Below the pieces are notes generated by a model. That model worked only from the letters and a program-made list of their open reading frames with translations, had not been told where the DNA came from and did no database searches. From NCBI GenBank assembly GCA_946611835.1, contig CAMOEE010000001.1, forward strand, positions 1-47,371: a DNA stretch of 47,371 nt, in the 5' to 3' direction. Below are positions 756 to 37,485 of the stretch, piece after piece; within the stretch, counting starts at the first letter, position 1; each line of letters opens with the position of its first letter. Origin of the DNA: an uncultured Treponema sp. Its GTDB lineage: Bacteria > Spirochaetota > Spirochaetia > Treponematales > Treponemataceae. Position numbers and translations under genes: made by a program.

Positions 756-821
756 ATATTTATTATACCACAAAATAATTATAAAATCTTTTTTCTTGAT
801 TTTAGGGCTAGAATCTCATAT

Positions 822-900
822 AATCGATGTAGATCCTATTAAGGTGAAAGTGGGCTACATGCCATGCGTTTCGAAAGGAACCTAGCCTTATATTGGGTCT
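822..900 (-). ncRNA. Candidate structured RNA at the 3' end of the DUF3800-like gene
   Basis: Minus-strand pairings TAAGG/CCTTA extended by AGACCC/GGATCT (imperfect), GGCTA/TAGCC and a TTTCGAAA palindrome; DUF3800 genes are known to be accompanied by conserved RNA motifs. Confidence 0.35.
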
Positions 901-1385: not shown

Positions 1386-1421
1386 TCTTGCCTCAGTTAC
1401 ATTATAGCAAATAATAGAATT

Positions 1422-2651
1422 TTAAACTTCAACTTCTCCATTCATTAATTTTGGAAGAAGTTTATCGCGGGCAGATTGAAGAAGTTGAATTTGATTCTGT
1501 AATGATTTTATTTTATCAAAATAACGAGCGGCTAGTTTTGAAAAATTTTCAAGTAAAGATTCTGGTGGAATAATTATTGGCATTGACTTTACAATCTTTG
1601 AATTAATCGCTGTAGAAATTGCAGATGTACTACCAAGAGAATCATAATGAAAGTTTTTCAAATATAAATATATGTATTCGCGAATAAACTTATTATCTGT
1701 TACAAAATGGGCAATTGCTTCATTTGTTGTCATCTCTTCTGTTGTTATAGAAACTCTTCCAACAGTTAGCTTAAAACTAAGCAAAACAGTATTTTCTGGA
1801 ATGATTTTTACATTTTTTGACTCGATAGCTTCATTTGTAAGATTTTCTGATGTTTGAAAAATAAATACTCCAGAGTTGCCCATATCGGCAATTGAAATCC
1901 ATTTTTTGCCAATATTTCCTTTTGAAAACCATTTAGTTTCATTCCTTGGCGGAGTTTTTCCTATTGTTATTTCAAAGTAGTCTTCAGCCCTAACTCTCTT
2001 CCACCCCTCTGGCACACCATCAACAATCTTTACATTTTCATGGCCAGGGAAGTTGAGTTTTACAAACCATTCTTTGTAGAGCTTCTGTGCTACCTCTTCC
2101 AAAAGTTTTATCTGCTTGCGGTTGTTTTCTATGAGGTCATCGTATGCAGAAAGAATTCCAGCGATTTTTTGTTGGGTTTCTAGTTGAGGACAAGGAAATT
2201 GAAATTGTTTAACCAAGTCTATTGTTAATGCAGGTTGAGCAGACCCTATTGTTCTTGCCCAGATTGTTTTTTGTCCTTCTGCTGAGTTAATGTAATAGAA
2301 TATAAATTGAGAGTTTACATTTTCAGAAATATCTTTTAACCAAATTAAATTTCCATCTTTAAAATAAAATGTTTCATCTTTGACCAAATACGGGATTCCT
2401 AGTGTTACACCAACTCCTGTTATCAATAAATCATTCTTTTGGGGAACTCCATAATTCATTTTCATTTTTCTATATAAATCATTACTGATGAATAATTGTT
2501 CTGAAAGTTCTTCACCTCGATTTTTTTCAATGATTTCTTTTTGGCGATAAAATGGTATTCCTGTTTTTGTATATTGATTAGCAAAAACTCTTTTACTCGA
2601 GGTTACAGTTGCAATATCTCCAAGTCTAACTTTCTTCCACTCAGTTTTCAT
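1422..2651 (-). CDS. hsdS: Type I R-M specificity subunit with two target recognition domains
   Basis: WKKVRLGDIA start, P..ETQQKIAGILSAYDDLIENN spacer helix, VPEGWK second repeat, RDKLLPKLMNGEVEV end. Confidence 0.95.
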   Translation of the reverse strand: MKTEWKKVRLGDIATVTSSKRVFANQYTKTGIPFYRQKEIIEKNRGEELSEQLFISNDLYRKMKMNYGVPQKNDLLITGVGVTLGIPYLVKDETFYFKDGNLIWLKDISENVNSQFIFYYINSAEGQKTIWARTIGSAQPALTIDLVKQFQFPCPQLETQQKIAGILSAYDDLIENNRKQIKLLEEVAQKLYKEWFVKLNFPGHENVKIVDGVPEGWKRVRAEDYFEITIGKTPPRNETKWFSKGNIGKKWISIADMGNSGVFIFQTSENLTNEAIESKNVKIIPENTVLLSFKLTVGRVSITTEEMTTNEAIAHFVTDNKFIREYIYLYLKNFHYDSLGSTSAISTAINSKIVKSMPIIIPPESLLENFSKLAARYFDKIKSLQNQIQLLQSARDKLLPKLMNGEVEV

Positions 2652-2671
2652 TTTTCACCATCCATTTTATA

Positions 2672-2790
2672 GAATTGCGTTAGCAATTCCGAATCTGTGT
2701 GACAATTCGGGGGCGTTGCGGGGGTTGCCCCCGCAGAGAGGGTAGCGGAAAACGCCGCAGGCGGTTGGAGCGAGGGGGAGACTTCCCCCT
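2672..2790. repeat. GC-rich multi-hairpin intergenic element (REP/MITE-like)
   Basis: Hairpins GAATTGC-GTTA-GCAATTC, GCGGGGG-TTG-CCCCCGC and AGGGGGAG-AC-TTCCCCCT in an AT-rich locus. Confidence 0.55.
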
Positions 2791-2812
2791 TCTTTATTTT
2801 TTCAGTTGCCAT

Positions 2813-3622
2813 TTATTTTCCTTCCGTCAGAAGTTTTCTGTCTTCAACATTTTCCAAAACCTTCATCTGCTGGATAGCGATTTTGTTCAATTTTTCCAAA
2901 CGTTCGTTTTGTGGAAGCCCATCATTAATAAATACTGCATTCAGATTTTCCATATTGCTAAGACAAATCAGCTGATTTATTGTCGCATAATCGCGAATGT
3001 TTCCTTTTAATTCTGGATTTGCTTCCCGCCACTCTTTTGCGGTAACACCAAACATAGCGACATTTAGCATATCTGCTTCATCTGCATAAACAAAAGATTT
3101 TTGAGCGGGTGTAAGCTCCGGCGGAATAAGATTCTGCTTTATAGCATCTGTATGAATACGATAATTGATTTTTGCAAGTTCACGTTTTGCACTCCAGCCA
3201 AGCTGTTTTTGTTCTTCTTCCTTTAAGCGCTGGAATTCTTTTACAATATAGATTTTAAATTCAGGACTAATCCACATTGCAAATTCAAAAGCAATGTCTT
3301 TATGTGCGTATGTACCACCATAGCGACCTGCTTTAGCCTGCAGACTTATAGCATTTGTTCTTTCAACAAATTCTTTTACGCTAATCTTAAAACTATTTAA
3401 TCCAGATTGACTTTTAATTATGGCGAATTCGCCATAATTAAAATTTGGGTTATAGACTTGTTCCCAAATTCCAATATATTCCAGAGTATTTCGGTTTCTG
3501 AGCCAGTCTGTTATAAAGAAATCTCCGTCTTTTGCTTTTAGCATATCAGTAAGACAAAAATAGTCTTCGTTATTAACCTGAACTACTGTAATCTCTGTAT
3601 CTTTTACATTAACTTTTTGCAT
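2813..3622 (-). CDS. KilA-N domain DNA-binding protein
   Basis: DYFCLTDM, DWLRNRNTLEY, GRYGGTYAHKDIAFEFAMWISPEF motifs. Confidence 0.88.
   Translation of the reverse strand: MQKVNVKDTEITVVQVNNEDYFCLTDMLKAKDGDFFITDWLRNRNTLEYIGIWEQVYNPNFNYGEFAIIKSQSGLNSFKISVKEFVERTNAISLQAKAGRYGGTYAHKDIAFEFAMWISPEFKIYIVKEFQRLKEEEQKQLGWSAKRELAKINYRIHTDAIKQNLIPPELTPAQKSFVYADEADMLNVAMFGVTAKEWREANPELKGNIRDYATINQLICLSNMENLNAVFINDGLPQNERLEKLNKIAIQQMKVLENVEDRKLLTEGK
3412..3443. repeat. Perfect 32-bp palindrome inside the KilA-N gene
   Basis: TTTTAATTATGGCGAA|TTCGCCATAATTAAAA. Confidence 0.95.
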
Positions 3623-5096
3623 TCTCTGCTCCAGCTACAATTTCCCAATGGCCGCCCTTATCGGCACCAACACGGCGGATAATACCTTCATTTTGCATTT
3701 CTGCAAGCATTTTTTTAACAGTTGTATGGCCAATATCAAGCATAGTTACTAATTTTGAAATTGTAACATTTGAATCTTTATTTATGGCTTCTAATATCTG
3801 TTGGCACTTTTCTGGCCACTTTTCTGGCCACTTTTCTGGCCACTTTATTGTTTTCTGGTCACTTTTCTGGACATGTTCTATAATTTTCTCCCCAGTTTTC
3901 TGAGAACTTTCGTCCGGCATTGGCTCAACTCCATAATTCATATTCTTAAAAGTAACACTAAAAGAATATGGATTGGAATTGAACACAGGAAGGTTTTCTT
4001 CTGTATAGTTTGGTGCAAATTTAACTGCGTCCATAATTTTTCTGAATCCACTGCCACGGCGTTCCATAAAATCCATGCGGGTAAGCAGGTCAGCAATTAC
4101 GGGATTTCGTCTTGTGGAAACTACATTCTCAAGCTTCTGATCCTGCACGGGAATTCCGTCGTACATTCCACCCGGGTTCTGAATTACAAGGCGGTCATCA
4201 AAAATATCAATATGAATTTCGCTTCCTAAAACACCATAATCACGATGAACAAGCGCATTTACCATTGCCTCGTGAATTGCACGCTCGGGAAAGTTTTCTT
4301 TATTAACTCGTGTTGTAGGAAGTTTGTACCAGATTTTCTGGTTATACAGTTTTATAAAACCTTCACCTTCGTTTAAAAGCTGCAAAATGCTTCCGCTAAA
4401 TTCCTTATCATCAATTGCATCATAAGAACTAGGTGCTTTTGTAAGCCCGTTCCATCTTGTACAGAAAATACGTGAATGAAAGAAGGGACAGACATCAGTA
4501 AACAGGGCTCCAGCATTTGTCAAAAAGTCATCTTTTGTTTTTAATCCGAAAGAATAATAATCCTGTGGTTCAATTCGTTTTCCTGTGCGATTGTAGTAAA
4601 GAGATTCAAAATAGGTAAAACTAAAATCTTTTGCTTCGTATTCAGATTTAAGCGTATCCCAGGTTTTATTTGTTCCTTTAAGAATCAGCTCATGCAAAAT
4701 TGGAGTATCAGCCTGAACGCTGGAAGAACCTGCTCTGATGAATGTAATCTTTGTTGAATTTTCATTCAGATAATAAGGAGTATTTAAGCCGCCAGAAACT
4801 TTTAATACAAGAACTGTATTTCCATCCACTGTGTCTGGTTCAAGAATAAATTCTGGAATTGGGGATATTCTGTCTTTAATACATTCAGTAATAAATTCAA
4901 TTTCTCCCTGCAAATCTGCTATAGGGCAATACTGGCGGTTTTCATCATCAATACCAAAAATCAAAGCACCGCCGATTCCGTTTGCAAATGCACAGACACT
5001 TTTGAGCCAGCTTTTAGTTTTTTTATGTTCAACTTCGCGCTTAAAGTCGCATTCTGTATGTTCAAGCTTAAACTTGCTTAAAGATAAGTTTTCCAT
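3609..5096 (-). CDS. AlbA_2 (Schlafen-like) + HATPase_c_4 + C-terminal HTH protein
   Basis: ECDFKRE...KSVCAFANGIGG, EAMVNALVHRDY, NPGG, RRNPVIA, ERRGSG, IRRVGADKGGHW. Confidence 0.85.
   Translation of the reverse strand: MENLSLSKFKLEHTECDFKREVEHKKTKSWLKSVCAFANGIGGALIFGIDDENRQYCPIADLQGEIEFITECIKDRISPIPEFILEPDTVDGNTVLVLKVSGGLNTPYYLNENSTKITFIRAGSSSVQADTPILHELILKGTNKTWDTLKSEYEAKDFSFTYFESLYYNRTGKRIEPQDYYSFGLKTKDDFLTNAGALFTDVCPFFHSRIFCTRWNGLTKAPSSYDAIDDKEFSGSILQLLNEGEGFIKLYNQKIWYKLPTTRVNKENFPERAIHEAMVNALVHRDYGVLGSEIHIDIFDDRLVIQNPGGMYDGIPVQDQKLENVVSTRRNPVIADLLTRMDFMERRGSGFRKIMDAVKFAPNYTEENLPVFNSNPYSFSVTFKNMNYGVEPMPDESSQKTGEKIIEHVQKSDQKTIKWPEKWPEKWPEKCQQILEAINKDSNVTISKLVTMLDIGHTTVKKMLAEMQNEGIIRRVGADKGGHWEIVAGAENAKS
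3805..3846. repeat. In-frame 12-bp tandem repeat, 3.5 copies, encoding KWPE
   Basis: CACTTTTCTGGC x3 + CACTTT; degenerate copies follow to about 3872. Confidence 0.9.
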
Positions 5097-5099
5097 GAA

Positions 5100-6953
5100 T
5101 TACGCCTCCAGCCCTAGTTCTTTCAGATTTGCATTTATCGTTGCCATAAGGTTATTACTTTCGTCCTGAAGTTTATTAAGTTCTACATGAATCTCTTTCA
5201 TGCGTTCTTCAAAGTTTTCGTCATCTTCCAGAACTTCTGCAACGCCAACATAAGCACCTGGAGTAAGGGAATAATTTTTCTCTGCAATTTCTGCACGGGT
5301 AGCGATTTTACAAAGACCTGCGATATCAGCATAAGTGCCATCGCCAAATTTGTCTGTGAGCCAGATTGCCTGTTTTATTATTTCTTCATTTTCCTTTATA
5401 TTGGCAATCATGTCTTCATTAGCCTGTTTAATGGCTTTCTTCGATTTGCGGTCTGCTTGGGCTTCTGCCTTCTGTGCCGTCTCTTCACAAATCTTAATCT
5501 GCTCCTGTGTGATTGCTAAAATTTCATGAAGATGCTCAATACTATTACATTCTGTGAGTAAGTCTCTTTTCTCCAAATCGTCTATGAATAAAGCTCCTGC
5601 ACGGATAGCATCGAAGTATTCTTCAAGAACAGTCTTGTACTTATCAATTTCTCCGCAATAAAGATGAACAATGCTGGTAAGATTTTTAATCTGCCATTTT
5701 GTCCATTCGTTTAAGTTGCGGTCTACGACAGTAAAATAATTACGGGCATCTATAAAAAGCACCTTGTTTTTAAGTTCATCCTTTTTGCCTTTATCAAAGA
5801 ACCAGAGGGTACAAGGAAGACTAAGCGTATAAAAGAAGTTATTTCCAACACTGAGGATTACATCTACATCACCAGTTTCTACAAGCTTCTGGCGGATGTC
5901 GCGGTCTGCATGCTGGCTGTCTGTTGCAGAGGAAGCCATAACAAAACCTGCACGACCGGTTTCATTCAGATATGCATAAAAGTAACTAATCCAAAGATAG
6001 TTTGCATTTCCAATTTCCTTTGTTTTTTCATTGTAGCCGGGAAGCCCGAAAGGAAGGCGGCCTGCATTAAGAGCAGCTTCGTATTTTACTTTGTTTACAT
6101 TGAACGGCGGATTAGCCATTACAAAATCACATTTACCTTCAAGTTTGTGATAATCGTTGTAGAAGGAATTTGCTTCGTCTCCGCTGATGATTTTTGCATT
6201 AAGGCCGTGAACTGCCATGTTCATCTTACAAAGCTTTGCATTGAACTCAACTTTTTCCTGTCCAAAGAAAGTGAGTTTGTCACTGGCGTTGATTCCATTT
6301 GCATTTACAAAGTCGCCTGAGCTTACGAACATACCACCAGAACCACAGGCAGGATCAAGAATCTTTCCATGTGTCGGCTGAATAATATTTACAATCATTC
6401 TTACAAGAGATTTTGGTGTAAAGAAAACGCCGTCATCACTGGCGATATTCTTTGCAAACTTGTTTAAGAAATATTCATAAATGCGGCCGATTACATCATC
6501 TTTAATTTCGTTGAGGGCATCATTGTTGAAAAGGCGGAGAAGGTCTTTGAGTAAATCATTCTTGAAAATTGTCTGATAGTTTTTTGGCAGAATACCGGAA
6601 AGGTCCGGGCATTCTTTTTCGATTGCTTCCATAGCCTTATCTACAGCTTCTCCAAGATTTTTGTCTTTTGGAAGATTTAAGAGATAATCATAGCGGGCGT
6701 TTTCTGGAAGGAAGATTGCACTTTTTGATTTAAAATCACTTGATTCAACCGGAAGTTTTACTCCGTTGCGGCTTGGACGGTCTTTGAGAATTTCTGCTTC
6801 AACATATTTAAAACGGGTAAAAGCATAGCGAAGGTAAATGAGCCCTAGGACAGGCATGCAGTATTCCTGCGAACTGAGTTTTGAACCTTCGCGTAAAGCA
6901 TCTGCGCTTTCCCAGAGGTCGTTTTCTAGTGATTTTATGTTGTTTTGTGACAT
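5100..6953 (-). CDS. hsdM: Type I R-M N6-adenine methyltransferase
   Basis: LWESADALR, YEYFL, FFTP, DPACGSGG (motif I), NPPF (motif IV); start moved to ATG 6953 with AAGGA upstream. Confidence 0.96.
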   Translation of the reverse strand: MSQNNIKSLENDLWESADALREGSKLSSQEYCMPVLGLIYLRYAFTRFKYVEAEILKDRPSRNGVKLPVESSDFKSKSAIFLPENARYDYLLNLPKDKNLGEAVDKAMEAIEKECPDLSGILPKNYQTIFKNDLLKDLLRLFNNDALNEIKDDVIGRIYEYFLNKFAKNIASDDGVFFTPKSLVRMIVNIIQPTHGKILDPACGSGGMFVSSGDFVNANGINASDKLTFFGQEKVEFNAKLCKMNMAVHGLNAKIISGDEANSFYNDYHKLEGKCDFVMANPPFNVNKVKYEAALNAGRLPFGLPGYNEKTKEIGNANYLWISYFYAYLNETGRAGFVMASSATDSQHADRDIRQKLVETGDVDVILSVGNNFFYTLSLPCTLWFFDKGKKDELKNKVLFIDARNYFTVVDRNLNEWTKWQIKNLTSIVHLYCGEIDKYKTVLEEYFDAIRAGALFIDDLEKRDLLTECNSIEHLHEILAITQEQIKICEETAQKAEAQADRKSKKAIKQANEDMIANIKENEEIIKQAIWLTDKFGDGTYADIAGLCKIATRAEIAEKNYSLTPGAYVGVAEVLEDDENFEERMKEIHVELNKLQDESNNLMATINANLKELGLEA

Positions 6954-7044
6954 GTAGGATTTCCTTTGCTTTTTTCTACTTGTAATTTCCATTATATCAC
7001 AATTTTCGCCCATTTTATAGCGGTAATCTCCACTATACCTCCCT

Positions 7045-20664: not shown

Positions 20665-22731
20665 TTATACCTCAAGATTTGTAATCGCAGTTTTGATTTC
20701 GGCCGTTCCGATTTTAAGGTGCTCAGCCGCATCCGAGACCGCTTTCTGTACTTCTTTGAGCTTGCCCATACTCTCAAGCAGCATCTCTCCGCCGTTGTTC
20801 TGCTCCTCAACAGAAGAGTGAACCATGCCCTCCTGAGTTTTGACCTGGCCCGAAAGGGTTACGATTCTGTCAAATTCCTTTGAGACCTCATCGGTTCTTG
20901 CTGTTGTGGTGTCAATCAGGCCCTTCATGTTCTTTAAAACATTGTCAATTGACTTTGCCTCTTTGCTGGAACTTTCGGCCAGCTTTCGGATTTCTGATGC
21001 GACTACGGCAAAGCCCTTTCCGGCCTCACCGGCGTGACTTGCCTCGATTGCGGCGTTCATTGAAAGAAGGTTTGTCTGGGCTGCAATCTGGTCGATTGTC
21101 TTTCCCATCTCCACAAGGCCCTTAGAACTTTCTTCGATTTTCTGAACCAGGGCATTAATCTCGCGCACGCTTGCCTGACCGACATTCGTTGCTCCCTCAA
21201 GCTCGTTTACGGCGGCGAAGTTCTTCTGCAAGATTGCGTTGATTGAACCGATATTACCGATCATCTGCTCGACGGCCGAAACCGAAGAATTGACATTCTC
21301 TGACATCTGGTCGGTGACTTTCGTAAGAGAGCTGACATTCTTTTCGTTTTCTTCAAGGCAGGCAACGCTCTTTCCCGTGACTTTCTGGATAGAAGCGCTG
21401 ATTTCGTCCTTAAAATCCCTGGTCATTTTGTGCATGACATAGTAAGAGCAGTGAGACATCTGGTTTACGCCGTTATGAATTGCCTTTGCCATTTCCTCAC
21501 AGGAACGATAGCCGCAGGCCTGGCAGTCGAGGATATCCTTTTCTTCAAATTTGCCCATCTCACCGAAGATTTTCTGGATTTCAGCCTTTGAAGGCTCCCT
21601 GAGATGTCTGACCGACGAGCTCCTGTCAACATAATTTCTCTTGTAGATTGACTCTTCCCAGAATTTATCAATCGTTGCATTGAGTTTTTTAAGCCCCTTT
21701 TTCATTTTGCGGTCGTTATCCATTTTCCAGAGAGACTTACGCTCTTCAGCACGGCTTTCGATATAGTTCTCAACCTCGTCAATCGGCATGTTCTGGTTGT
21801 CAGTTCCCGCACCACAGTTACAACCATGGGCGCAGTTGAGGCAGTCGATGAGCTGATACATCGGAGTCTTACCCTTTTTTATGTCCTCGCTCAGCTGCTC
21901 GAAATACTCGTAGACTTCCGGGAAACCTTCGATTTTGCGGGTGTTCTTTTGGATTCCTTTTACGAACCTGTCCGCAGTACGCAGGAGACCGCCCGGAGTT
22001 GAGTAAAGAACTCCCCTCTCAGCAGGCGGATTGTCATATTCAGTTTTCGGAAAGGAAGCGAGATTAATATTATTCTGCTTGAAATGCTCAGAAATAGAAT
22101 GCATGGTGACATTGAAGTCCCCGAGGCCGTTCTCATCAAATTCCCGTCTTTTTGCATAGCATGGAGAAATTGCGGCAACCTTGCAGTTGGCATATTCCGG
22201 GTAGAATTTTTTAATCATTGTGACAGTATGGGCCATAGGGCTGTCAGCCGGGGAAAGATACTGAATCAGCTCAGGATGATAAAGCTCAATCCAGGTGACG
22301 ATTGCCGGACAAGGCTGGGAAATCACGAGCTTAGGATTGTTCTTTTTGATATGCTCGACATAAGACTTGGTCGTAAGCTCGGCACCAAAACTTACATCAA
22401 AAACAGCCTTTACGCCGATTGATTTGAGCCAGCCGTTAAGCTCAAGATCCCTGCCCTTGAATTGAGCGGCGGCGGCAGGAGCAACAATCGCAACAACCCC
22501 GTCGCCTTTTTTGAGGGCCTTGAAGAAATCATCTGCATCATCAATTCCATAGCGGGCCCCGTGAGTACAGGCCTCAATACATGCACCGCAACCAATACAA
22601 AGCTCATGGTTGACTTTTACATAATCGCCTGAACCGTCGTTACACATTTTTGAAGGACAGACCGCAATACAACGGTGACAGTTAACACATTTGTCTTTAT
22701 CAACAAAAATTACCGGTTTCAACTCTGACAT
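20665..22731 (-). CDS. Soluble chemoreceptor: 2x[4Fe-4S] + [FeFe]-hydrogenase-like domain + FeS + MCP signalling domain
   Basis: CVNCHRC...[75 protein letters not shown]; no TM helix. Confidence 0.9.
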
Positions 22732-24943: not shown

Positions 24944-25504
24944 TTAAACACGGCTCCAGAGGGCACAATAAGCCTGAGTTCGGGCCGCAAAACGGGCAAC
25001 CTTCAGAAGAGCACGGATTTCTGCTTTCGTGTACCAGAAAGCCTCGATTTCTTCCATCTCTGAATCGCTCGGCCTAATCTCACCGCTGGCAGTTCCCGTA
25101 ATCACAATATTCTTTTCGTTCGAGAAACCGACGGCAGAATAGCTCTCAAACCAAATCTCTTCTATATGAAGAAGCTTGAGCCCGGTCTCCTCCCTGAGTT
25201 CCCGCTCGGCCGCCGAAGCCGCATCCTCACCGCTGTCAATAAGACCCGCCGGAAAATTGTAAACCCACTCCCCCGTCGCCATCCGATATTCGCGTGAAAG
25301 AAGAATCTGCTCCTTTTCTTCGTCGTGCATAATCATGACAACGGCATCGACACGCCCGCCACGCAGATCATCAAAATCCTTTATGTTAGGGTTTCGGCTT
25401 ATCATCTCGTAGGTCTTGGTCTTTCCGCTGGCAGTCTCGTACTCGATGTTGTAGCGGGTAATGAATTTTCCCTGATGTATCTTCTGAATTGACTTGAATT
25501 TCAT
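24944..25504 (-). CDS. NUDIX hydrolase (ADP-ribose pyrophosphatase-like)
   Basis: Nudix box PAGLIDSGEDAASAAERELREETG. Confidence 0.92.
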   Translation of the reverse strand: MKFKSIQKIHQGKFITRYNIEYETASGKTKTYEMISRNPNIKDFDDLRGGRVDAVVMIMHDEEKEQILLSREYRMATGEWVYNFPAGLIDSGEDAASAAERELREETGLKLLHIEEIWFESYSAVGFSNEKNIVITGTASGEIRPSDSEMEEIEAFWYTKAEIRALLKVARFAARTQAYCALWSRV

Positions 25505-26905: not shown

Positions 26906-27502
26906 TTAAAACGATTTCTTTACGATAATCTCGACTTTCTTGCCCTGAATTCCAACCAGAACCTCATCGGCTATGTTCGCAATTATAGAGCGCTCAAGCT
27001 CATCCCACTTCTCGCTCTGCTCCTTCTTTGCCTTGTTACGGTAAGCCGCAAGCGACCAGGCCTGAGCTGAAAAAGAATTAACGCCGGAAAGTCCGTCGCT
27101 GTAAAAGCCATAGCCCAAAGGCATATCGGCCGCATTGGTCTCGTAGTCAATCATCATGAAGGCAGCAGCCAGCTTGATTTTTGCCATGATTCCTTTGGCA
27201 GAAGCGTTTTTACCGGAAGAAGAAACCTCAAGCAATTTTTCGCGTTTGTCGCTCGTGAGGGCTTCATTTGGAGCAAGCTCTGTGTGAAGCTCGAATTTAT
27301 TGCCCTCGCTCTCAACCCAGAATTCTCCGTCAGAAAATTCAAGGAGCTCAGGCAACATCCCGACGAGCTCTTCCGCAAGAAGTCGAAGACGGCCCGCATC
27401 CTTTTTTGAAAGATTTGAGTAAGATGCAGCCTTTTCTGTCTCATCCAGCAATGCCGAAAGGGACTCCGCTCCCTGAGAAAGTTTGCAAATATCAGATTTC
27501 AT
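26906..27502 (-). CDS. Degenerate RsbW-like anti-sigma factor / ATPase-fold protein
   Basis: LRLLAEEL helix and terminal IIVKK strand like RsbW; directly behind a STAS gene; canonical G-boxes absent. Confidence 0.55.
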   Translation of the reverse strand: MKSDICKLSQGAESLSALLDETEKAASYSNLSKKDAGRLRLLAEELVGMLPELLEFSDGEFWVESEGNKFELHTELAPNEALTSDKREKLLEVSSSGKNASAKGIMAKIKLAAAFMMIDYETNAADMPLGYGFYSDGLSGVNSFSAQAWSLAAYRNKAKKEQSEKWDELERSIIANIADEVLVGIQGKKVEIIVKKSF

Positions 27503-27817: not shown

Positions 27818-28040
27818 AACAGAATATTTTATCCTAAAATTTTAATTTGACAATAAAAATTTTTAAGAATCAAACATCCTATAATCAATGTTCTAACCCC
27901 TTAAGTTTAGAACCACAACAAAAATTTTATGCCAGCAAAAGGAGAAGATACTCCCACTCCTCATCCAGCTGGATAAATTATAGCACATAATAAAAATTTT
28001 TTACAGACATATTTAAGAATATTTATAAAAAATTTTATAA

Positions 28041-28780
28041 GTAACAAATTTTCAACGCAAGGCAGAATCAGGGCTCGTCTACAAATTCATACACTTTAGT
28101 ACCAAAAAATCAACGCTTAAAAACAATATCGTTCGGTAGTCAGAATTCAGCAAGAATTGCGAATGAATCTGAAAAATCAAAATCAATTCTTTTTATTATA
28201 AGAAATTACCAAAGTAACAAATTTTCAACGCCATATACAAAAATAAAATTTACCGAACGGTAGTAACAAATTTCCAACGAAAAGACTGATTTTGGTAACA
28301 GATTTTCAACGAAAAATGTAAAAAAAACGAGTTTTTAAAAGAAAAAAATAAGGACAAAACCTTGAAATAAAAGAGGTAACAAATTCTCAACGCCTTCTAA
28401 AGGCAGAAATACTCGTCAGAACAAAGAAAAACAAGGATAAAGGCTGAAAACAGGTTCCAAGTAACAATTAAACAACGAAAAACAACATTTAATATAGAAG
28501 GAAAAGCAAAAAAGTCACATAATGACAACGATTAGCAACAAAATCCTGTGGAAAAACAAATTTCAGGTAACATTTTTACAACGAAAGGAAGATTCGCATA
28601 AATCCTTACATAAAAAGGAAATACGGAATCTTCTCAAAACAGCCGGTCACAATCTCTCAACGAAACCGTCACAAATTCACAACTTCTTCTATATAAACAA
28701 ATAGAATTCAAATAGTTTTTTAAAATTTAAACAAATAGTAAAATTCGTTAAAAAGTTAAAAACTGTTGCCTTTTTGTGAC
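28041..28780. repeat. Iteron array and AT-rich element: putative replication origin
   Basis: 17-mer GT[A/C]ACA-N6-CAACG at 28041, 28099 (degenerate), 28214, 28263, 28295, 28376, 28461, 28514, 28567, 28646, 28668 (ends CAACT), plus an inverted copy at 28764-28780; AT-rich 28690-28763 with CAAATAG x3; adjacent to repA. Confidence 0.88.
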
Positions 28781-28788
28781 CAGTCATT

Positions 28789-29757
28789 TTAGAGGTTTGC
28801 CGTAACAAGAACGTAGTGTTTGTCACTTGGAAGAATCACAGGCTTGCTTTTGGCAAAGGTTATACCGGAATTATCCTCTGCAATCGACACATTGAGGTCA
28901 GGATAATACTTGCTTTTTATAAGTTTTATCTGCTCCTTCAATGTGTTCCAGTTGACCCTTTCCTCAGACTCGTAGCTTTTTTCCTTTACGGGCAGGAACT
29001 GATTGACAAGCGATTCCCTCGAAATGAAAATCGGCTCAGTGATGCTGTTGTTGCGGTAGACGAACCAGGCGTACAAATCCTTTCCGACGACGCTTGATAT
29101 TTCCTTGTAGACACCGTAGTCAATCGGAACTGAGTGATCCTTCGAGAGCTTGGTGAATTTATCGGAGAGCACAATCGTAAGGCCTATGCTTTTCTTTTCC
29201 TTGCCGTTCTCGTCGATGTCAACATAGCTCATTGACTCGAAGAAAGGAACCACACCGCTTGTATGCCAGGTTGCCGTGACCTTTCCGTCAAGTTTTTCGT
29301 CCTCGCTGAAGAATTCCTTGAAAAGAACCTTATCTGTCTTCTGTGTCCTTTTCTCCCGGAATACGAATGAGGCTCCGGAGAAGCACTCCAGCTGTTCCTT
29401 AATTTCTTTGCCCCGCTGTTTGGGAAGCTGCAATTCATCCAGAAGCTGCTGTAATGATGTGTACTGAAGGATTACAGGCTTGTCCGAAGATGCTTCTTTG
29501 TCAAGGACGGCGTGAGTCGTCATAATCGTGAGCAGAAGACGCCCGTTTTTTCCGTAGGGAACCTTGATATCGCTCGTGAGCTTGAAGTTTATGTTGTTGT
29601 ATTTCCGCTCGAAGACATTTTTCTTGACATCTTTTAGAGGAAGGGCCGCTGCGATGAAGGGGCTGGCTATGTAGCTCCTGTATTTTTTTATGATTTCCCG
29701 GGATGTCGTCTCAATCGGGAAAAGCTCCTGAAGATATTTGTTATCGTTGTCAGTCAT
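28789..29757 (-). CDS. repA: Plasmid-type replication initiator (RepA_C-like family)
   Basis: AALPLKD..FERK, VPYGKNGRLLLTIMTTHAV (cf. LPYG..PRLLL...TEAV), HSVPID, DLYAWFVYR; start ATG 29757 next to the upstream stop. Confidence 0.82.
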   Translation of the reverse strand: MTDNDNKYLQELFPIETTSREIIKKYRSYIASPFIAAALPLKDVKKNVFERKYNNINFKLTSDIKVPYGKNGRLLLTIMTTHAVLDKEASSDKPVILQYTSLQQLLDELQLPKQRGKEIKEQLECFSGASFVFREKRTQKTDKVLFKEFFSEDEKLDGKVTATWHTSGVVPFFESMSYVDIDENGKEKKSIGLTIVLSDKFTKLSKDHSVPIDYGVYKEISSVVGKDLYAWFVYRNNSITEPIFISRESLVNQFLPVKEKSYESEERVNWNTLKEQIKLIKSKYYPDLNVSIAEDNSGITFAKSKPVILPSDKHYVLVTANL

Positions 29758-29758
29758 C

Positions 29759-30262
29759 TTAGCTTTCCTTGCGCTTGTATGAGTGCGAGCTGATTGAGAC
29801 CTTGCCGTTCTCCAGGTCTTCCTTGAAGTAGTCCATGGCGCACATGACAAAATGGTTCATTGAGACGCCTTTGAGGGCGCAGAATGACTTGAAGACGCTC
29901 CTCTCCCCTTTCGACATAGAGACCAGGAATTTTTCCTTTACCTCGCGGCGTGTCGGGCTTTTTGAAGTTTCTGCGGCTTCCTGAGTGGCAATTACCGATT
30001 GAGCCGTTATTTGCTGGGGTTGAATGGAAGCAGAAACTGTCTCTGCGTTGAGAATTTGTGACTCGTCATTTGAAATTTGAGCCTGATTTGCCTCCGGACG
30101 GGTATTTTGATTAGGACTTGTGTTTGAAGCCCTTAAAAGCCCTTCTCGTGCCCCTGGAGCTGTATTTACGCTTTCGGTCTGAGAAAAATTACTGTTGATT
30201 GCGGCTGCCAGCGGATCGACTTTTTTTGTTGCGCCTGCATTGTAATTCTGTGGAACTTTCAT
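29759..30262 (-). CDS. Partition adaptor: disordered N-terminus + C-terminal ribbon-helix-helix (type Ib ParB/ParG-like)
   Basis: Coupled to parA (TAATG overlap); KEKFLVSMSKGERSVFKSFCALKGVSMNHFV fits an RHH fold. Confidence 0.68.
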   Translation of the reverse strand: MKVPQNYNAGATKKVDPLAAAINSNFSQTESVNTAPGAREGLLRASNTSPNQNTRPEANQAQISNDESQILNAETVSASIQPQQITAQSVIATQEAAETSKSPTRREVKEKFLVSMSKGERSVFKSFCALKGVSMNHFVMCAMDYFKEDLENGKVSISSHSYKRKES

Positions 30263-31014
30263 TATTTTGTCATCTCCCTGATAATTGAGTCGATTGCGTC
30301 TGTTGTTTCCTTTCGGGCGGTGATTGCCTTATCCTGAATGCAGTTCTTCAGGATTTGAGCCTTTACGAAAGATGTGTCAGTCGGAATAGTGAGGAACTGG
30401 GTGTCGTCGAAATTCTTCATGAAGTTCTCGGCAAAGAGCGACTGGAACTTCATTCGCTTGTCCTGCTGGTTGAGTATGACGAAAGAGATTTTTTCGAGAA
30501 GGTCCTTGCAGCGGATTTCTTTTGTCGTGGTGATGAGGTTTTCTATGAGCGTCTGGAATCCGTCGGCCGAGAACTGGTCCAGCTTAAGGACAGGAACGAT
30601 TACATCGGCGCAGTTTGCGATGCCTTTCTCGAAGTCGCCGAAAGCCGGAGAGGTGTCAAAAATGAGATAGTCGAAATCTTTGAGGGCCGGGAAAACCGTA
30701 TCCTCGAAGGCGTAGTAGTTCCTTGTGCTTGCGGCAAAGCTCTGCAGGCCTCCGTTGATTGCGAATGTCGGCAGCAGGAAAAGATTGTCGAAGTGAGTCT
30801 GAACGAGGCAGTTCTCCACCTTAATTTTCCCAGTGAGGACATCAGAAAGCTCGTACTGGAAATTCTTTGAGAGCCATGATGACGAGTTGCCCTGAGGGTC
30901 ACAGTCGGCCAGGACTGTCTTGTAGCCCCGGCGCGCAAGTTCGATCGCACAGGTGACCGAAATGCTGGTTTTTCCGGTTCCGCCCTTGCGATTCAAGAAA
31001 ACGAAAGATTTCAT
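30262..31014 (-). CDS. parA: ParA-family partition ATPase
   Basis: Deviant Walker A RKGGTGKTS, DCDPQGN, FDYLIFDTSP; no N-terminal HTH. Confidence 0.93.
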   Translation of the reverse strand: MKSFVFLNRKGGTGKTSISVTCAIELARRGYKTVLADCDPQGNSSSWLSKNFQYELSDVLTGKIKVENCLVQTHFDNLFLLPTFAINGGLQSFAASTRNYYAFEDTVFPALKDFDYLIFDTSPAFGDFEKGIANCADVIVPVLKLDQFSADGFQTLIENLITTTKEIRCKDLLEKISFVILNQQDKRMKFQSLFAENFMKNFDDTQFLTIPTDTSFVKAQILKNCIQDKAITARKETTDAIDSIIREMTK

Positions 31015-31069
31015 AAATTTTCCCACCTTTTTGAATTTTTTATCCCCTGCGGGATTTCAGCAAAAATCA

Positions 31070-31230
31070 TAAAAATTATATATTTATATTTATATAGCAT
31101 TTTCTATATTAAATCAACTATGAAAATATAATAAAGAATATTAAAATAGATAGTAAAAAGAATATTAATAAAGATATAATAATATTAAAAAGTATATATT
31201 TATATAAATATAGCACAAAAATTGAATTTA
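31070..31230. promoter_or_regulatory. Extremely AT-rich par promoter region, candidate centromere (parS)
   Basis: Two copies of TATATATTTATAT...ATATAGCA near 31077 and 31193. Confidence 0.4.
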
Positions 31231-31326
31231 ACGGGCCCCCGGAATTTAATTTGAGTAATTTTATCACCTGAAGAAAAATGGCCCGATTTTAAAGATTCCT
31301 TTCATTTTTTCCGACAATAATAACCT

Positions 31327-32994: not shown

Positions 32995-35952
32995 CTAGTT
33001 CAAATCATTGAATTTTCCGTCGTTATTTAGTGCCAGGAATGCATCTACGACCTTCGGATCGAACTGACTTCCTGAGCACCTTTTTATTTCCTCAACGATG
33101 AAGTCGAGGGGAAGCTTTTTCCTGTAAGGACGGGTCGAGCTCATTGCGTCGAAGGTGTCGGCCACGGCGATGATTCGGGCTACCCATGGAATTGAGGTTC
33201 CTGAAATGCCTGTAGGGTAGCCTTTTCCGTCAAAGCGCTCGTGGTGGAACCTGGCACCCTGGGCCAAATCTTCCTGAATCTTCACATCCTTTAAAATCTC
33301 GTAGCCCCTCTGGGGGTGGCTTTTCATAATCGCAAATTCCTCGTCGGTGAGCTTTGCGGGTTTCTTTAAGATTTCGTCCGGGACTGCGATTTTTCCGATG
33401 TCGTGGAGCAGGGCTATATTATAGTATTTGTTGACGATTTCCTTTTTTTCTCCGAGCTGCTCCGCCAGCATCTTTGTGTATTTTGCGACACGGTGGGCGT
33501 GGCCGTTGGTGTATTCGTCCTTGCCGTCGATACAGTTTGCGAATGCCTCGATGATGGCGTTCGTGAATTCTTGTTCTTTTTTTGACTTGACCTGCATCTT
33601 GTGGAATTTGATGTGGATAGTCTGTGCAGTAATCAGAAGTGCGATCAGAATGAGGGCCGGCCAGAACCATGGGCGTTGCCAGAGAAAAGGTTTTTTGATT
33701 ATATGAACCGGCTCTGACGGTATGCCCTGAACCCCGTCGTTGTTCTGCGCAACTACAGTGAATTCGTATTTGCCGGGCTTGAGGTTGGTGTAAGAGGCGA
33801 GACGGAGATTTTCCCAGTCAGAGTAGTTTTTGTCGAAGCCGGAGAGCTTCTGTCTGAATCTGACTTTGTCAGGTGCAACAAAACTCAGTCCGGTATATTT
33901 TATTGAAAGTCGTTTTGCGGAAGGCGGAATTATGATTTCCTGACCGTGGTAGTCAAAAATCTCGTTGTCGATTGCGTATTGCTGGATTTCGATGTTTGGG
34001 GCAAGGTTGTTCTTGGAAAGAGTTTTCGGATCATAGGTCGCGAATCCGTCTACCAGAGGAAAATAAATGCGTCCTTCCGGGTCCTCGTGGGCGAATGATG
34101 TTGATGTGACGCCGCTTGTTGAGAGCCCCTCAGTTTTTCCGTAAATCTGAACATTGAATTTCGATTTTTTGCCTGAAATTACATATTCAAGCTCGTTCAT
34201 GGGCACTGAGATGATGCCTTTGTTAGTCGTAATCCATGCACTTCCTTTTTTGTCTATCAGAAGCTGGAATACGCTGTCCGTTCCAAGGCCGTTTTTTGAG
34301 GAAACAGAGTGGAAGGAGTCAGTTTTTTCATCAAATTTTGAGAGGCCCGTTCCTGTGCCGACCCAGATGCTTCCGTTCAGGAAGGAAATTTTGAAGATTA
34401 CATTCCCTGCGAGTCCGTCGTCAGTCGTGTAATTGCGGAGAATATTTTCGTCTTTGAGGACATAGATACCTCCTCCGTTCGTTCCGACCCAAATCTGTTT
34501 TTGTGAGTCCTCATAGAGCCACATGATGTAGTCGTTGCCTAAACCGTCCTTTTTTGTGAGCGTTCTGATCCTGCCGTCATGGTGGATTATGCTGAGCCCT
34601 GTTGAGGTTCCTACATAATAGTCGCCGGAAGAAGATTTTATGGAAACCCTGGCCTTGAAGCCAGCCAGTCCGTCCTTGACCGAGTATTTTTTGATTTTTC
34701 CGTCTTCAAAAAGACATATTTGCGGAATGTCGTAGGAGAAGCTTGTGACCAGAAGCTCGTTTGTGTCTGTCAGGGCGACATGGCGGATTCTCGTTCCTTT
34801 GGTGAGGCGGGTCAGCTCGTTCTGGATGAATTTGTTGTCCTGGTAGCAGTAAACGCCGTCATCGGTTGCGAGCCAGGTTACATTGCGGAAATTGTCCCTG
34901 CATATTGCGTTTACGGCGAAGTCCATGCTGACTGTGTGGAATTTGCTCAGCGTGAGTTTTTGAAGCCCGCCCCGGTTCAGTGCCACCCAGAAATTTCCTT
35001 CCCTGTCTTCGATTATGGCAACGACGGCATCATCGTTAAGTCCGTTCCTTTTGTCCATGTAAGAATATTTTCCGTCATGAAGGACTGTGATTCCTGAGTG
35101 GGTGGCGAACCAGTAATTCCCCTGACTGTCTTCAAGGACACCAAGAACGAGGGCGTTGGACTTGTGATCGTGGGAGACATCGAAAAATGACTCTTTGCCG
35201 TCCTTTACACGGATTGCAAGGTTCTTGCCTGTACAGAACCAGAGGGCACCTTTCTTGTCCTCGTTGACAGCTAAAATTTCTTCGCTGCTTATGCTTTCCA
35301 GTCCCTGGTATCTTTCAATTTTCGTCTGCTCAGGATTGATTACGAAAAGCTTTCCCTTGTGGCCGGTTATAATCCAGAGCCGGCCCGTACTGTCGCAGGT
35401 AATCTCTGCCACCACGATGTTCTCGTTTTCGACGGCTTTAAGAAAATCCGGCGTTACGGTCTTAAAATCTGGTGTGATGTAGCTGACGCCGATTGCAGTT
35501 CCCACCCAGATGTTGCCTTTTTTGTCCTCGCAGATGGCATTTATCTTGTTGTTGACCAGGCCGTTTTCCTTCGTGAATTTGACGATTTCTCCGTTCGGTT
35601 TGAAGCATGAGATTCCCTCGTCGTTGTGACCGACCCAGATATTGTCCCGTGAGTCCTGGTAGAGGTCATGGGCTGATGCAAAGTCGTACTTTTCGTCATG
35701 GGCCCTGCTGAAAATGGTGAATTCAAGTCCGTCGAAGCGGACAAGTCCGTCGTATGTTGCGATGTAGATGTATCCTTTTTTGTCCTGAATGACTTTGTTA
35801 ACGGTCATACCGGGAAGACCTTCCTCAGTCGTCCATGTCTTTGCCACATAATTCTCGATGAAAGACTGGTCTTTTCCGATATTTTCAATTTTTTGACCGA
35901 AAATGCTGATGGAGAATGCTGACAGCAAGAGCAGAATCGCATGTTTTTTCAT
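32995..35952 (-). CDS. Beta-propeller (Reg_prop) + Y_Y_Y sensor fused to an HD-GYP phosphodiesterase
   Basis: Signal peptide, many D..G.(I/Y)WVGT repeats, YTNLKPGKYEF, one TM, HAHRVA, LLHDIGK, HHERFDGKGYP. Confidence 0.92.
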   Translation of the reverse strand: MKKHAILLLLSAFSISIFGQKIENIGKDQSFIENYVAKTWTTEEGLPGMTVNKVIQDKKGYIYIATYDGLVRFDGLEFTIFSRAHDEKYDFASAHDLYQDSRDNIWVGHNDEGISCFKPNGEIVKFTKENGLVNNKINAICEDKKGNIWVGTAIGVSYITPDFKTVTPDFLKAVENENIVVAEITCDSTGRLWIITGHKGKLFVINPEQTKIERYQGLESISSEEILAVNEDKKGALWFCTGKNLAIRVKDGKESFFDVSHDHKSNALVLGVLEDSQGNYWFATHSGITVLHDGKYSYMDKRNGLNDDAVVAIIEDREGNFWVALNRGGLQKLTLSKFHTVSMDFAVNAICRDNFRNVTWLATDDGVYCYQDNKFIQNELTRLTKGTRIRHVALTDTNELLVTSFSYDIPQICLFEDGKIKKYSVKDGLAGFKARVSIKSSSGDYYVGTSTGLSIIHHDGRIRTLTKKDGLGNDYIMWLYEDSQKQIWVGTNGGGIYVLKDENILRNYTTDDGLAGNVIFKISFLNGSIWVGTGTGLSKFDEKTDSFHSVSSKNGLGTDSVFQLLIDKKGSAWITTNKGIISVPMNELEYVISGKKSKFNVQIYGKTEGLSTSGVTSTSFAHEDPEGRIYFPLVDGFATYDPKTLSKNNLAPNIEIQQYAIDNEIFDYHGQEIIIPPSAKRLSIKYTGLSFVAPDKVRFRQKLSGFDKNYSDWENLRLASYTNLKPGKYEFTVVAQNNDGVQGIPSEPVHIIKKPFLWQRPWFWPALILIALLITAQTIHIKFHKMQVKSKKEQEFTNAIIEAFANCIDGKDEYTNGHAHRVAKYTKMLAEQLGEKKEIVNKYYNIALLHDIGKIAVPDEILKKPAKLTDEEFAIMKSHPQRGYEILKDVKIQEDLAQGARFHHERFDGKGYPTGISGTSIPWVARIIAVADTFDAMSSTRPYRKKLPLDFIVEEIKRCSGSQFDPKVVDAFLALNNDGKFNDLN

Positions 35953-36075
35953 AAGGAAATAATCTCCCTTTACAATGGAATAATAGCAAACAGAATAAAA
36001 TAGCGTTTAAATTATCTTTAAACTATAGCACCGTTTTTCTTGCAGGTCAAAGAAAAAGAGTTTATAATAGAAGAC

Positions 36076-37485
36076 ATGAAAAAAATTGCAGGAATTCTGC
36101 CCCTTCTTTTGATTTGCGGGTGCATTTATGCCATCGATGTTAATAAGGGCGAGCTTGAGTCGGCCCAGAAAGATTCAGTCCAGTTCGAGAATTATAGCGG
36201 GCCTCATGCCGTGATTGAAAGTGCGGACGCAATCACAGGAATCGGCCGCGCTCTTGGTGAGGAGGTCGCCCGTGATGTAGAGAATCCTCTTTCTGTTCAG
36301 CCGCATGCAAAATATTCTGTCTATCATGTAGTAGGAGCTCCCGAAGAGAAGGGGCTTGACGCAGACATCCTTTTCCTGAATGAGAATGCCGGGGTTGACC
36401 ACATCAACAATCTCAGACGCATCATCACAGGTTTTTTGACGGCGGCTTACGGCTACCCAAAGGAAGACGCTGAGACACTTTCTGTTTTCATCACTGTTTA
36501 CAATGCCGTTTACCGGGGCCAGATTTCCGCCTTTGCCACAAAATACAAGAATGCGGTCCTCACATATCTTACGGAGGATTCCCTTGGATTGAGCACGAAC
36601 TGGGAAGAATGGGCCGGCAGGACACAGATTGTCATTCCGCTCGGAAGTATCGCCGGGGGAAGTGCCACAATCGAGACATCAGAAATCAGCGATGACAAGG
36701 TAATCGAGGCCCTGCGCAGGGATGAGGGCAAAAATCTCGATGTGCGAGAAAAGCTGACTGACATAAAAGAAAAAGAAGCTGATAACGCAAGCGAAAAGGC
36801 AAAGACCGCCCAGAAAGAAGCCGCCCAGGAGCGGAAAGAGGGCAAGACAGACGAGGCCGGGCAAAGCGCAAAGACTGCAAGCGAGCAGCAGAAAATCGCC
36901 GACAAAAAAGGTGAGGAAGTGAAGACTGAGCGGGAGCAGATCTCAAAGGACAAGGCTGAGGTCAAAAAAGAAGAGGTTGCGAAAGCAGCCGAAGAGCAGA
37001 ACATCAAGTACCTCACCAGTCTTTTTATCGTTGACGAGAAGAAAAAACTCTATTCGCTGATGACGGTTAATCCTCAGAACGGCTCTGTCGTCAAAAAATC
37101 CGGCATAAAGCAAATCCGGGAGAAGACGATTTATCCACTTGGAGGTGGATTTGTGGCTGTCTGCGGCGTGAACGACAAGCACTCTGCCGTTAAACTCTGC
37201 ATTATTGATGAGGTGACCCTCGAAATCAAAAAAGAAAGCAGCGAAACTCTCTCTGAGAACACTTCACTTGTCCTTGAGGGCGACCTTTTCTATGCGATTG
37301 TCAGCGAAGGTAAAAAGAATTATCTTGCGGCCTTTGACAAGGATTTGAACCTCAAAAAGAAGAGCGATGTCGCAATCAACGGCGCAAGCCCTCTCAATTT
37401 CTACAGTGAGGGAATCATAGTGACCGACGAAAAGGGAAATCCTGTTCTACTTTCATTGCCGGCCCTGGCACCTGTCTGGTTATAA
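36076..37485 (+). CDS. P83/100-family spirochaete antigen
   Basis: Signal peptide, VQFENYSGPH, DADILFL..NAGVDHINNLRRI, FITVYNAVYRG, WAGRTQIVIPL, charged coiled coil. Confidence 0.8.
   Translation: MKKIAGILPLLLICGCIYAIDVNKGELESAQKDSVQFENYSGPHAVIESADAITGIGRALGEEVARDVENPLSVQPHAKYSVYHVVGAPEEKGLDADILFLNENAGVDHINNLRRIITGFLTAAYGYPKEDAETLSVFITVYNAVYRGQISAFATKYKNAVLTYLTEDSLGLSTNWEEWAGRTQIVIPLGSIAGGSATIETSEISDDKVIEALRRDEGKNLDVREKLTDIKEKEADNASEKAKTAQKEAAQERKEGKTDEAGQSAKTASEQQKIADKKGEEVKTEREQISKDKAEVKKEEVAKAAEEQNIKYLTSLFIVDEKKKLYSLMTVNPQNGSVVKKSGIKQIREKTIYPLGGGFVAVCGVNDKHSAVKLCIIDEVTLEIKKESSETLSENTSLVLEGDLFYAIVSEGKKNYLAAFDKDLNLKKKSDVAINGASPLNFYSEGIIVTDEKGNPVLLSLPALAPVWL

What the first reader, a model, noticed from the sequence alone, without database searches (positions are those of the whole stretch)
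27850..31260. Complete plasmid-type origin at a GC-skew inversion: probable secondary chromosome (chromid) or megaplasmid in a treponeme
Seen: a coupled parA-RHH adaptor-repA operon followed by about 12 iterons and an AT-rich tract, with no integrase, att-like repeat or transfer genes nearby. Hand counts on the + strand, all inside minus-strand genes so coding direction is controlled, flip across this site: left 25201-25260 G14/C24 and 27001-27060 G12/C22; right 30481-30540 G19/C7 and 33481-33540 G20/C14. 21 of 24 genes on the left point away from the site. Known: C>G to G>C inversion marks long-used bidirectional origins, and iteron/Rep/par modules drive chromids. Inference: this is the active origin of a large second replicon carrying chromosome-like genes, which I do not know to be characterised in Treponema. 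Four 60-bp samples are only indicative.
Basis: partly seen in the sequence, partly recalled or inferred. Interest (0 to 1): 0.85.

Follow-up and report, generated by a model that had tools for sequence, protein, structure and literature searches.

The report
Hidden second replicon in rumen Treponema
This stretch is an intact plasmid-type replication origin, kept by 9 of 14 related gut Treponema species, that likely runs a large overlooked second DNA molecule, and in one related species it shares a contig with the only copy of an essential ribosome-assembly gene.

Summary
Observation confirmed. parA, a small adaptor gene and repA (RepA_C family; fold closest to RctB/RepE) precede 11 direct iterons, one inverted iteron and an invariant AT-rich core. 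The C-to-G skew inversion survives strand control and recurs at this rep in 5 of 5 relatives examined; those relatives also have a separate dnaA origin. The module is confined to one Treponema clade (9 of 14 genomes), under purifying selection, with chromosome-like composition; Rep-bearing contigs reach 250 kb. A one-contig genome of the clade (G200, 81% complete) lacks the origin, its neighbours, engA and thrS. In G147 the sole engA, ptsI and addA lie on the Rep contig. Against a simple chromid story: engA sits beside chromosomal genes in G033, G072, G263 and probably in this genome, so no essential gene is shown on the replicon here, and no closed assembly shows a separate circle. Best reading: a clade-resident, chromid-like second replicon whose essential cargo differs by species (0.6); a second origin on a fused chromosome (0.2) is not excluded. 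The Rep family is already on two deposited Treponema plasmids; I found no paper describing a Treponema chromid.

The parts
30262..31014 (-). parA, Walker-type partition ATPase, 250 aa
   Evidence: Pfam AAA_31 E 1e-25; 90-97% identical in 5 relatives; named ParA family in its cluster
29759..30262 (-). 167-aa adaptor gene, variable linker and near-invariant C-terminal 65 residues; likely the centromere-binding partner of ParA (inferred)
   Evidence: alignment; no Pfam/NCBIfam hit; fold search lists many ribbon-helix-helix proteins but Z at most 4.6, inconclusive
28789..29757 (-). repA, 322-aa initiator of the RepA_C (PF04796) family
   Evidence: model pLDDT 77.7, best folds RctB domains 2-3 (E 2e-7), RepE54, Pi
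28040..28686 (+). array of 11 direct 17-19 bp iterons, irregular spacing 22-115 bp
   Evidence: 8-12 array copies at the same place in 5 of 5 relatives
28671..28715 (.). AT-rich origin core after the last iteron; likely unwinding site (inferred)
   Evidence: 44 of 45 columns invariant in 6 species whose rep third positions differ by 44%
28764..28780 (-). inverted iteron closing the origin beside the repA stop
   Evidence: same place in 5 of 5 relatives
30046..30062 (-). lone inverted iteron inside the adaptor gene, 290 bp upstream of repA; candidate autoregulation or copy-control site (inferred)
   Evidence: kept in 5 of 5 relatives although it lies in the variable linker
31072..31222 (.). conserved AT-rich blocks upstream of parA; candidate promoter and centromere (inferred)
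   Evidence: two TATATTTATA..TATAGC blocks and an invariant central block in 6 species; 82-92% AT
29414..29414 (.). minimum of cumulative G-C over the contig
   Evidence: strand-controlled minimum at the rep gene, deepest of 38 contigs of 15 kb or more (-364, next -183), though this is also the longest contig

Best explanation
This is an intact iteron-type origin with its own initiator and partition genes, and it likely runs a large, vertically inherited second replicon (chromid-like) in one clade of gut Treponema. Shown: the parts, their conservation, the skew inversion at rep, and a separate dnaA origin in relatives. Inferred: RepA binds the iterons, opens the invariant AT-rich core and starts two-way replication; the lone iteron upstream of repA limits initiator or copy number; ParA and the adaptor segregate the molecule; it is a domesticated descendant of the conjugative RepA_C plasmids of Treponema, at least 250 kb, that trades genes with the chromosome, so that essential genes (engA, ptsI, addAB) have moved onto it in some species but not all.
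For: Skew minimum inside rep in 5 of 5 relatives' contigs, running 75 kb left (G147) and 97 kb right (G033); strand-controlled shift in 6 of 6. dnaA on other contigs in 5 of 5 with its own minimum in the 3 contigs long enough. Rep at 89% or more occurs only inside the RecA 95% clade, in 9 of its 14 genomes. Amino-acid difference 8% against 44% at third positions; parA distances follow recA (Mantel r 0.77, 8 of 5040). One-contig genome G200 has dnaA at a skew minimum yet lacks this Rep, orthologues of window 20.6-40.5 kb, any match to G147:C7 100-117 kb (12 of 13 genomes match), engA (25 of 26 have one copy), thrS and ptsI. ORFs with an orthologue in the 2.0 Mb of G200 that I read: 11 of 327 on Rep contigs, 81 of 173 on dnaA contigs. 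Sole engA, ptsI, addA on the Rep contig in G147; they are on the main contig in the closed outgroup genomes. 14 linked contigs here (188 kb): GC 44.2 vs 45.5%, dinucleotide distance 7. No VirD4 in 9 of 14 clade genomes including G000, G033, G147, G072. Cluster members lie on contigs up to 250 kb. 4 of 4 origin-holding runs also cover the host recA locus (weak).
Against: No closed assembly holds this origin, so separateness and size are not shown. engA lies on contigs with chromosomal blocks in G033, G072 and G263, and in this genome unique 55-nt end overlaps chain C4 (engA, ptsI, addA) to a contig ending in an rplQ-like gene (label recalled). thrS lies beside chromosomal blocks in G072, G137, G144 and was also not found in G033. 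So G200 lacks genes that are chromosomal in most relatives, which assembly loss could also explain; only 2.0 of its 2.9 Mb were read. In G072 the origin's left-flank genes share a contig with recA. rep distances do not follow recA (r 0.08, 1376 of 5040). 5 of 14 clade genomes gave no copy of this Rep. dnaA was not found in this 70.6%-complete genome. Rep contigs of relatives are 4-6 GC points above their dnaA contigs.
Confidence: 0.6

Rival explanations
1. The origin is an active second origin inside the main chromosome: a RepA_C plasmid fused with the chromosome long ago and still fires, giving two skew inversions on one molecule. G200 would then be an assembly that dropped a long internal segment.
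For: Genes that flank rep in G147 sit on chromosomal contigs in G033, G072, G137, G144, G263 and by graph in G000. G072:C20 joins origin-flank genes to recA. G200 itself holds a sister Rep module inside its main contig.
Against: No common junction: G137 and G200 are continuous at the G200 517-kb point where G033 carries ptsI-engA, and G033:C22 runs across the ribosomal operon without a large insert. Strand-controlled skew in G200 1-2.0 Mb shows no extra origin outside the repeat-bounded block. The five relatives' Rep contigs, up to 117 kb, show no chromosomal run beyond three genes. Stable two-origin chromosomes are rare (own knowledge).
Confidence: 0.2
2. It is a separate but dispensable accessory megaplasmid (sugars, vitamins, signalling). 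The engA link in G147 would be a chimeric metagenome contig and the gaps in G200 an assembly fault.
For: Cargo on G033:C26 and G144:C127 is glycoside hydrolases, arabinose use, riboflavin, cobalamin, urease, chemoreceptors. engA is chromosomal in several species. rep was exchanged between close relatives. A sister module sits near the centre of a 247-kb low-GC block in G200.
Against: Skew is continuous across G147:C7; addA shares a contig with a RepA_C module in G147, G072 and G036; chromosome-like composition; clade-restricted, conserved synteny around rep; no VirD4 in the best drafts.
Confidence: 0.16
3. A silent, integrated plasmid remnant; the skew inversion comes from gene orientation or an old rearrangement.
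For: Left-side genes are mostly on one strand; raw skew can follow gene strand, as at G200 1.87 Mb.
Against: Inversion survives strand control in 6 of 6 contigs; iterons, core and rep are under strong constraint; flanks differ between species but the minimum stays at rep.
Confidence: 0.04

Closest known systems
Treponema plasmids pTRESU01 (NC_015386.1, 165.6 kb) and pTB1 (NZ_AP025287.1, 85 kb)
   Same: RepA 44-45% identical; pTRESU01 has the same order AAA ATPase, small gene, rep, followed by repeats that share the GTAACA/TGTTAC half-site.
   Different: Both carry type IV secretion genes; this replicon's best drafts have no VirD4. Iteron sequence differs. This Rep is clade-restricted and its cargo is chromosome-like.
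Vibrio cholerae chromosome 2 (iteron chromid, RctB)
   Same: Iteron origin beside its initiator; best fold match is RctB domains 2-3 (E 2e-7, TM 0.46, 12% identity); own partition genes.
   Different: 322-aa initiator of another family; iterons hold no GATC; ParA plus small adaptor instead of ParAB2; no cell-cycle control tested. The review read (PMC6090056, passages) places iteron chromids in beta- and gammaproteobacteria and does not mention Treponema.
Sinorhizobium meliloti pSymB
   Same: engA is one of its two single-copy essential genes (PMC4207669, passages); engA is the sole copy on the Rep contig of G147.
   Different: pSymB uses repABC; here engA's place varies among species and essentiality was not tested.
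Leptospira chromosome II and the T. saccharophilum rrn plasmid
   Same: Secondary replicons with essential genes in spirochaetes (PMC2229662, listing only; PMC10645730, passages and supplement hits).
   Different: The rrn plasmid is 8.4 kb, Rep_3, high copy, without partition genes. Relation to the Leptospira initiator was not tested.

Membership tests
Chromid (three criteria as quoted in PMC12342839, passages) | Plasmid-type replication and maintenance system | tested here: met
Chromid | Composition close to the chromosome (usually within 1% GC) | tested here: inconclusive
   44.2 vs 45.5% for 14 linked contigs, 45.3% for the window without its restriction island, dinucleotide distance within chromosomal scatter; but Rep contigs of relatives are 4-6 points above their dnaA contigs
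Chromid | Carries core genes that are chromosomal in other species (relative G147) | tested here: met
   sole engA, ptsI, addA on Rep contig C7; on the main contig in closed outgroups; one metagenome contig
Chromid | Carries core genes (this genome, G000) | tested here: inconclusive
   none in the window (the P83/100 gene is a paralogue); engA contig chains to the ribosomal operon end; the only tRNA-Val(GAC) found is on a weakly linked contig
Chromid | Physically separate from the dnaA chromosome | tested here: inconclusive
   absent from one-contig G200 but no closed assembly holds it
Chromid | Essential, one copy per chromosome, replication timed to the cell cycle | not testable with these tools
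   needs curing and marker-frequency analysis
RepA_C (PF04796) iteron replicon | Initiator matches PF04796 | tested here: inconclusive
   24.6 bits against cut-off 26 for this protein; most close homologues carry PF04796
RepA_C (PF04796) iteron replicon | Direct-repeat iterons and AT-rich core beside rep | tested here: met
Type Ib partition system (ParA plus ribbon-helix-helix adaptor) | Short Walker-type ParA followed by a small gene | tested here: met
   250-aa ParA, 167-aa partner; family definition recalled
Type Ib partition system (ParA plus ribbon-helix-helix adaptor) | Partner has a ribbon-helix-helix fold and binds a centromere | tested here: inconclusive
   model pLDDT 57; RHH proteins at Z 3-4.2; binding not testable
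Conjugative plasmid or integrated element | Integrase, att repeats or coupling protein near rep | tested here: not met
   (this genome is 70.6% complete; also none in G033, G147, G072 at 93-98%)

The most novel reading that the evidence does not exclude
A clade of rumen treponemes that includes T. ruminis has an undescribed chromid caught mid-domestication: a RepA_C iteron replicon of several hundred kb, without transfer genes, onto which engA (the same gene that locks in S. meliloti pSymB), ptsI, addAB and perhaps thrS have moved in some species but not in their sisters, with initiator swaps and occasional fusion to the chromosome; closed genomes of the clade that report no plasmid have missed it.
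Probability: 0.45. Interest if true: 0.75.

Novelty: new member of a known kind. Interest (0 to 1): 0.58.

Why it matters
Treponema is treated as a one-chromosome genus with occasional plasmids. A resident second replicon would change how rumen treponeme genomes are counted, since it carries fibre-degrading, vitamin and urease genes. Sister species that differ in whether engA has moved would give a natural series for the open question of how megaplasmids become chromids, with a striking parallel to pSymB. The claim is directly testable because a cultured species, T. ruminis, has this Rep while its published closed genome reported no plasmids. The origin is also a candidate low-copy shuttle replicon for commensal treponemes.

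Tried and rejected
Closed genome with this Rep: none in PLSDB, GTDB contigs or the metagenome scan (8 loci, longest contig 151 kb). P83/100 as a core gene: a paralogue, second copy elsewhere in 5 of 5. trxB on G147:C7 as replicon cargo: its three-gene block is chromosomal in G200. The small ORF beside ptsI that I first took for HPr is a YoeB-like toxin. An apparent second origin in G200 at 1.87 Mb vanished under strand control. Ile/Val/Leu synthetases and translation GTPases are present in G200, so most core genes tested are on its main contig. Whether G200 and G147 are sisters: recA tree unresolved. DnaA boxes: only one-mismatch hits in the origin (consensus recalled), not counted. Four runs without the origin gave only short pieces on the recA locus; a lack of cover proves nothing. 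Earlier findings: three look-ups empty. Literature: searches Treponema+chromid (21 papers), +megaplasmid+rumen (4), T. ruminis+plasmid (4), +secondary chromosome (0), +chromosome II (4), +multipartite genome (0), +two chromosomes (1) gave no description of such a replicon; most were seen as listings only, and subscription papers, including the diCenzo and Finan review (not held), and bioRxiv supplements were not seen. The last 0.9 Mb of G200 and the contigs around the sister Rep in G072, G036 and G110 were not read as sequence.
Full report
What is there. The window is the whole of contig C1 of a 70.6%-complete, 293-contig genome. Three abutting minus-strand genes encode a 250-aa ParA, a 167-aa protein and a 322-aa Rep. 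Downstream lie 11 direct iterons (28041-28668), an AT-rich core and one inverted iteron; a further inverted copy sits inside the middle gene. The genome's background predicts 0.01 such motifs in 760 bp. The Rep model (pLDDT 77.7, 57-sequence alignment) matches RctB domains 2-3, RepE54 and Pi, all iteron initiators. The middle protein's fold is unresolved. No integrase or transfer family was found among 36 ORFs.

Skew. The four hand counts are right and the cumulative minimum is at 29414, inside repA. Third-position skew rises across the site on both coding strands (permutation 1 of 20000). It is the deepest strand-controlled inversion of 38 contigs of 15 kb or more, though C1 is also the longest. 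Gene co-orientation holds on the left (19 of 22) but not on the right (4 of 12).

Host and relatives. Named records of close homologues are Treponema from rumen or gut (two bins carry other labels), and a protein named T. ruminis (WP_184660944.1) is in the same 90% cluster. The Rep family occurs in 70 of 201 genomes of the genus and, at 44-45%, on pTRESU01 and pTB1, both with type IV secretion genes. Copies at 89% or more occur only inside the 14-genome clade with RecA 95% or more identical (338 genomes searched; the Rep searches covered 201 and 164 genomes, overlapping). Nine of the 14 have it (G263); G200, G036, G038, G072 and G110 gave none. In 5 of 5 relatives whose Rep contig I read, the skew minimum falls in rep, the iteron pattern and lone upstream iteron recur, and 44 of 45 bases of the core are invariant while rep third positions differ by 44% and residues by 8%. 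This is an origin in long use. The same five have dnaA elsewhere, with its own minimum in the three contigs long enough. parA distances follow recA (r 0.77, 8 of 5040 permutations); rep distances do not (r 0.08), mainly because G000 and G119 have near-identical recA but saturated rep: the replicon looks inherited while its initiator allele can be swapped.

Separate molecule? No closed assembly holds this Rep. The best handle is G200, one contig of about 2.9 Mb, 81% complete, of which I read 2.0 Mb. Its dnaA lies near a skew minimum. Searches of the whole contig found no orthologue of window 20.6-40.5 kb (long hits 64-68%, against 70-85% in the four other genomes), no match to G147:C7 100-117 kb (12 of 13 genomes match) and one 68% match to its first 20 kb. 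In the part read, 11 of 327 ORFs of Rep contigs have orthologues against 81 of 173 for dnaA contigs. G200 also lacks engA (present once in the other 25 of 26), thrS (24 of 26; G033 also lacks it), ptsI (15 of 17) and the addA orthologue, while Ile/Val/Leu synthetases and elongation factors are present. Separately, Staton et al. (PMC8049484, passages) report a closed T. ruminis genome with no plasmids, whereas the T. ruminis Rep's longest contig on record is 193 kb. G200 is unnamed, so these two lines cannot be counted as independent.

Chromid? In G147 the only engA, ptsI and addA lie on the 117-kb Rep contig with riboflavin, cobalamin and tRNA-Val(GAC) genes; in the closed outgroup genomes searched they are on the main contig (G204, two contigs, has engA, addA and thrS on its second). 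addA also shares a contig with a RepA_C module in G072 and G036. engA is one of two essential single-copy genes of S. meliloti pSymB (PMC4207669, passages). In this genome 14 contigs (188 kb) linked by orthologues to relatives' Rep contigs have 3 of 139 ORFs in the read part of G200, GC 44.2 against 45.5%, and a dinucleotide distance inside chromosomal scatter (C4 and C113 were dropped from the 16 after the graph result below). VirD4 was not found in 9 of 14 clade genomes. Size: at least 250 kb from the longest contig of a cluster member; a rough ceiling of about 0.6 Mb in this bin from unmapped contigs (my extrapolation).

Against. engA lies on contigs with chromosomal blocks in G033, G072 and G263. 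In this genome unique 55-nt end overlaps chain C133-C4-C113-C103, linking engA, ptsI and addA to the end of the ribosomal operon (the rplQ label is recalled). thrS is beside chromosomal blocks in G072, G137 and G144. In G072 the origin's left-flank genes share a contig with recA. So G200's missing set mixes replicon genes with genes chromosomal in most sisters. A transfer of that segment to the replicon, as on G147:C7, explains this; so would loss in assembly. The recA tree cannot say whether G200 and G147 are sisters. A fused two-origin chromosome is weakened by the lack of a common junction and by G200's strand-controlled skew but is not excluded.

Mechanism. Shown: parts, conservation, skew, separate dnaA origin in relatives. 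Inferred from iteron plasmids and V. cholerae ori2 (PMC6090056, passages): RepA binds the iterons, melts the invariant core and starts replication in both directions; the lone upstream iteron restrains initiation; ParA and the adaptor act on the conserved AT-rich blocks upstream of parA.

Novelty. Chromids and iteron origins are known, and this Rep family is on deposited Treponema plasmids. Seven paper searches found no Treponema chromid; a survey of 43,000 complete genomes (10.1101/2025.03.15.643453, passages) lists large Treponema replicons only as low-GC, presumed strain-specific cases. Verdict: real, active origin; likely a clade-resident second replicon (about 0.76 including the accessory-megaplasmid reading); chromid status shown for one relative's contig and open for this genome. 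New member of a known kind; interest 0.58.

Noticed in passing
G200:C1 1,212,202-1,460,677 (L185-L198): A 247-kb block of 38.9% GC bounded by identical 1,486-bp repeats with an integrase-core transposase, with its own V-shaped skew, tRNA clusters and a sister RepA_C module with different iterons (GGTAACA-N4-TGTTG): a whole second-type replicon, integrated or mis-joined.
   Followed up: partly
G000:C160, G119:C102, G094:C76, G147:C54, G072:C4, G110:C162, G036:C20: A second ParA-adaptor-RepA module (44% to this Rep) recurs in the clade; in G072 and G036 it shares a contig with addA, riboflavin genes and orthologues of this window, suggesting initiator replacement or a two-module replicon.
   Followed up: partly
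G204:C2: A two-contig, 99%-complete genome outside the clade has engA, thrS and addA on its second contig (over 634 kb) and no RepA_C hit; either a split draft or another large replicon.
   Followed up: no
window 1-7013: Low-GC (30-39%) type I restriction-modification island (hsdR, hsdS, hsdM) with KilA-N and Schlafen/AlbA genes; five of its ORFs match the dnaA contig of G147.
   Followed up: no
window 36040-37485: Second, replicon-linked paralogue of the spirochaete P83/100 protein, kept near rep in 5 of 5 genomes.
   Followed up: partly
G000:C4 versus L054:4264-8298: Two AddA types, about 32% identical, are split across the clade; G110 has two copies. One may have displaced the other.
   Followed up: partly
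window 20665-22731: Fusion of an iron-hydrogenase-like Fe-S domain with a chemoreceptor signalling domain, conserved in relatives.
   Followed up: no
window 39770: A lone near-perfect iteron 11 kb from the origin; the genome background (about 1 per 70 kb) makes chance possible.
   Followed up: no
L057-L066 (G033:C26, G144:C127): Rep contigs carry arabinan and cellulose hydrolases, arabinose catabolism, urease, riboflavin and cobalamin genes.
   Followed up: partly
G200:C1 575-623 kb: Three very long ORFs (3208, 5263, 3994 aa) without orthologues in this genome lie between the ribosomal operon and the trmE-like block.
   Followed up: no
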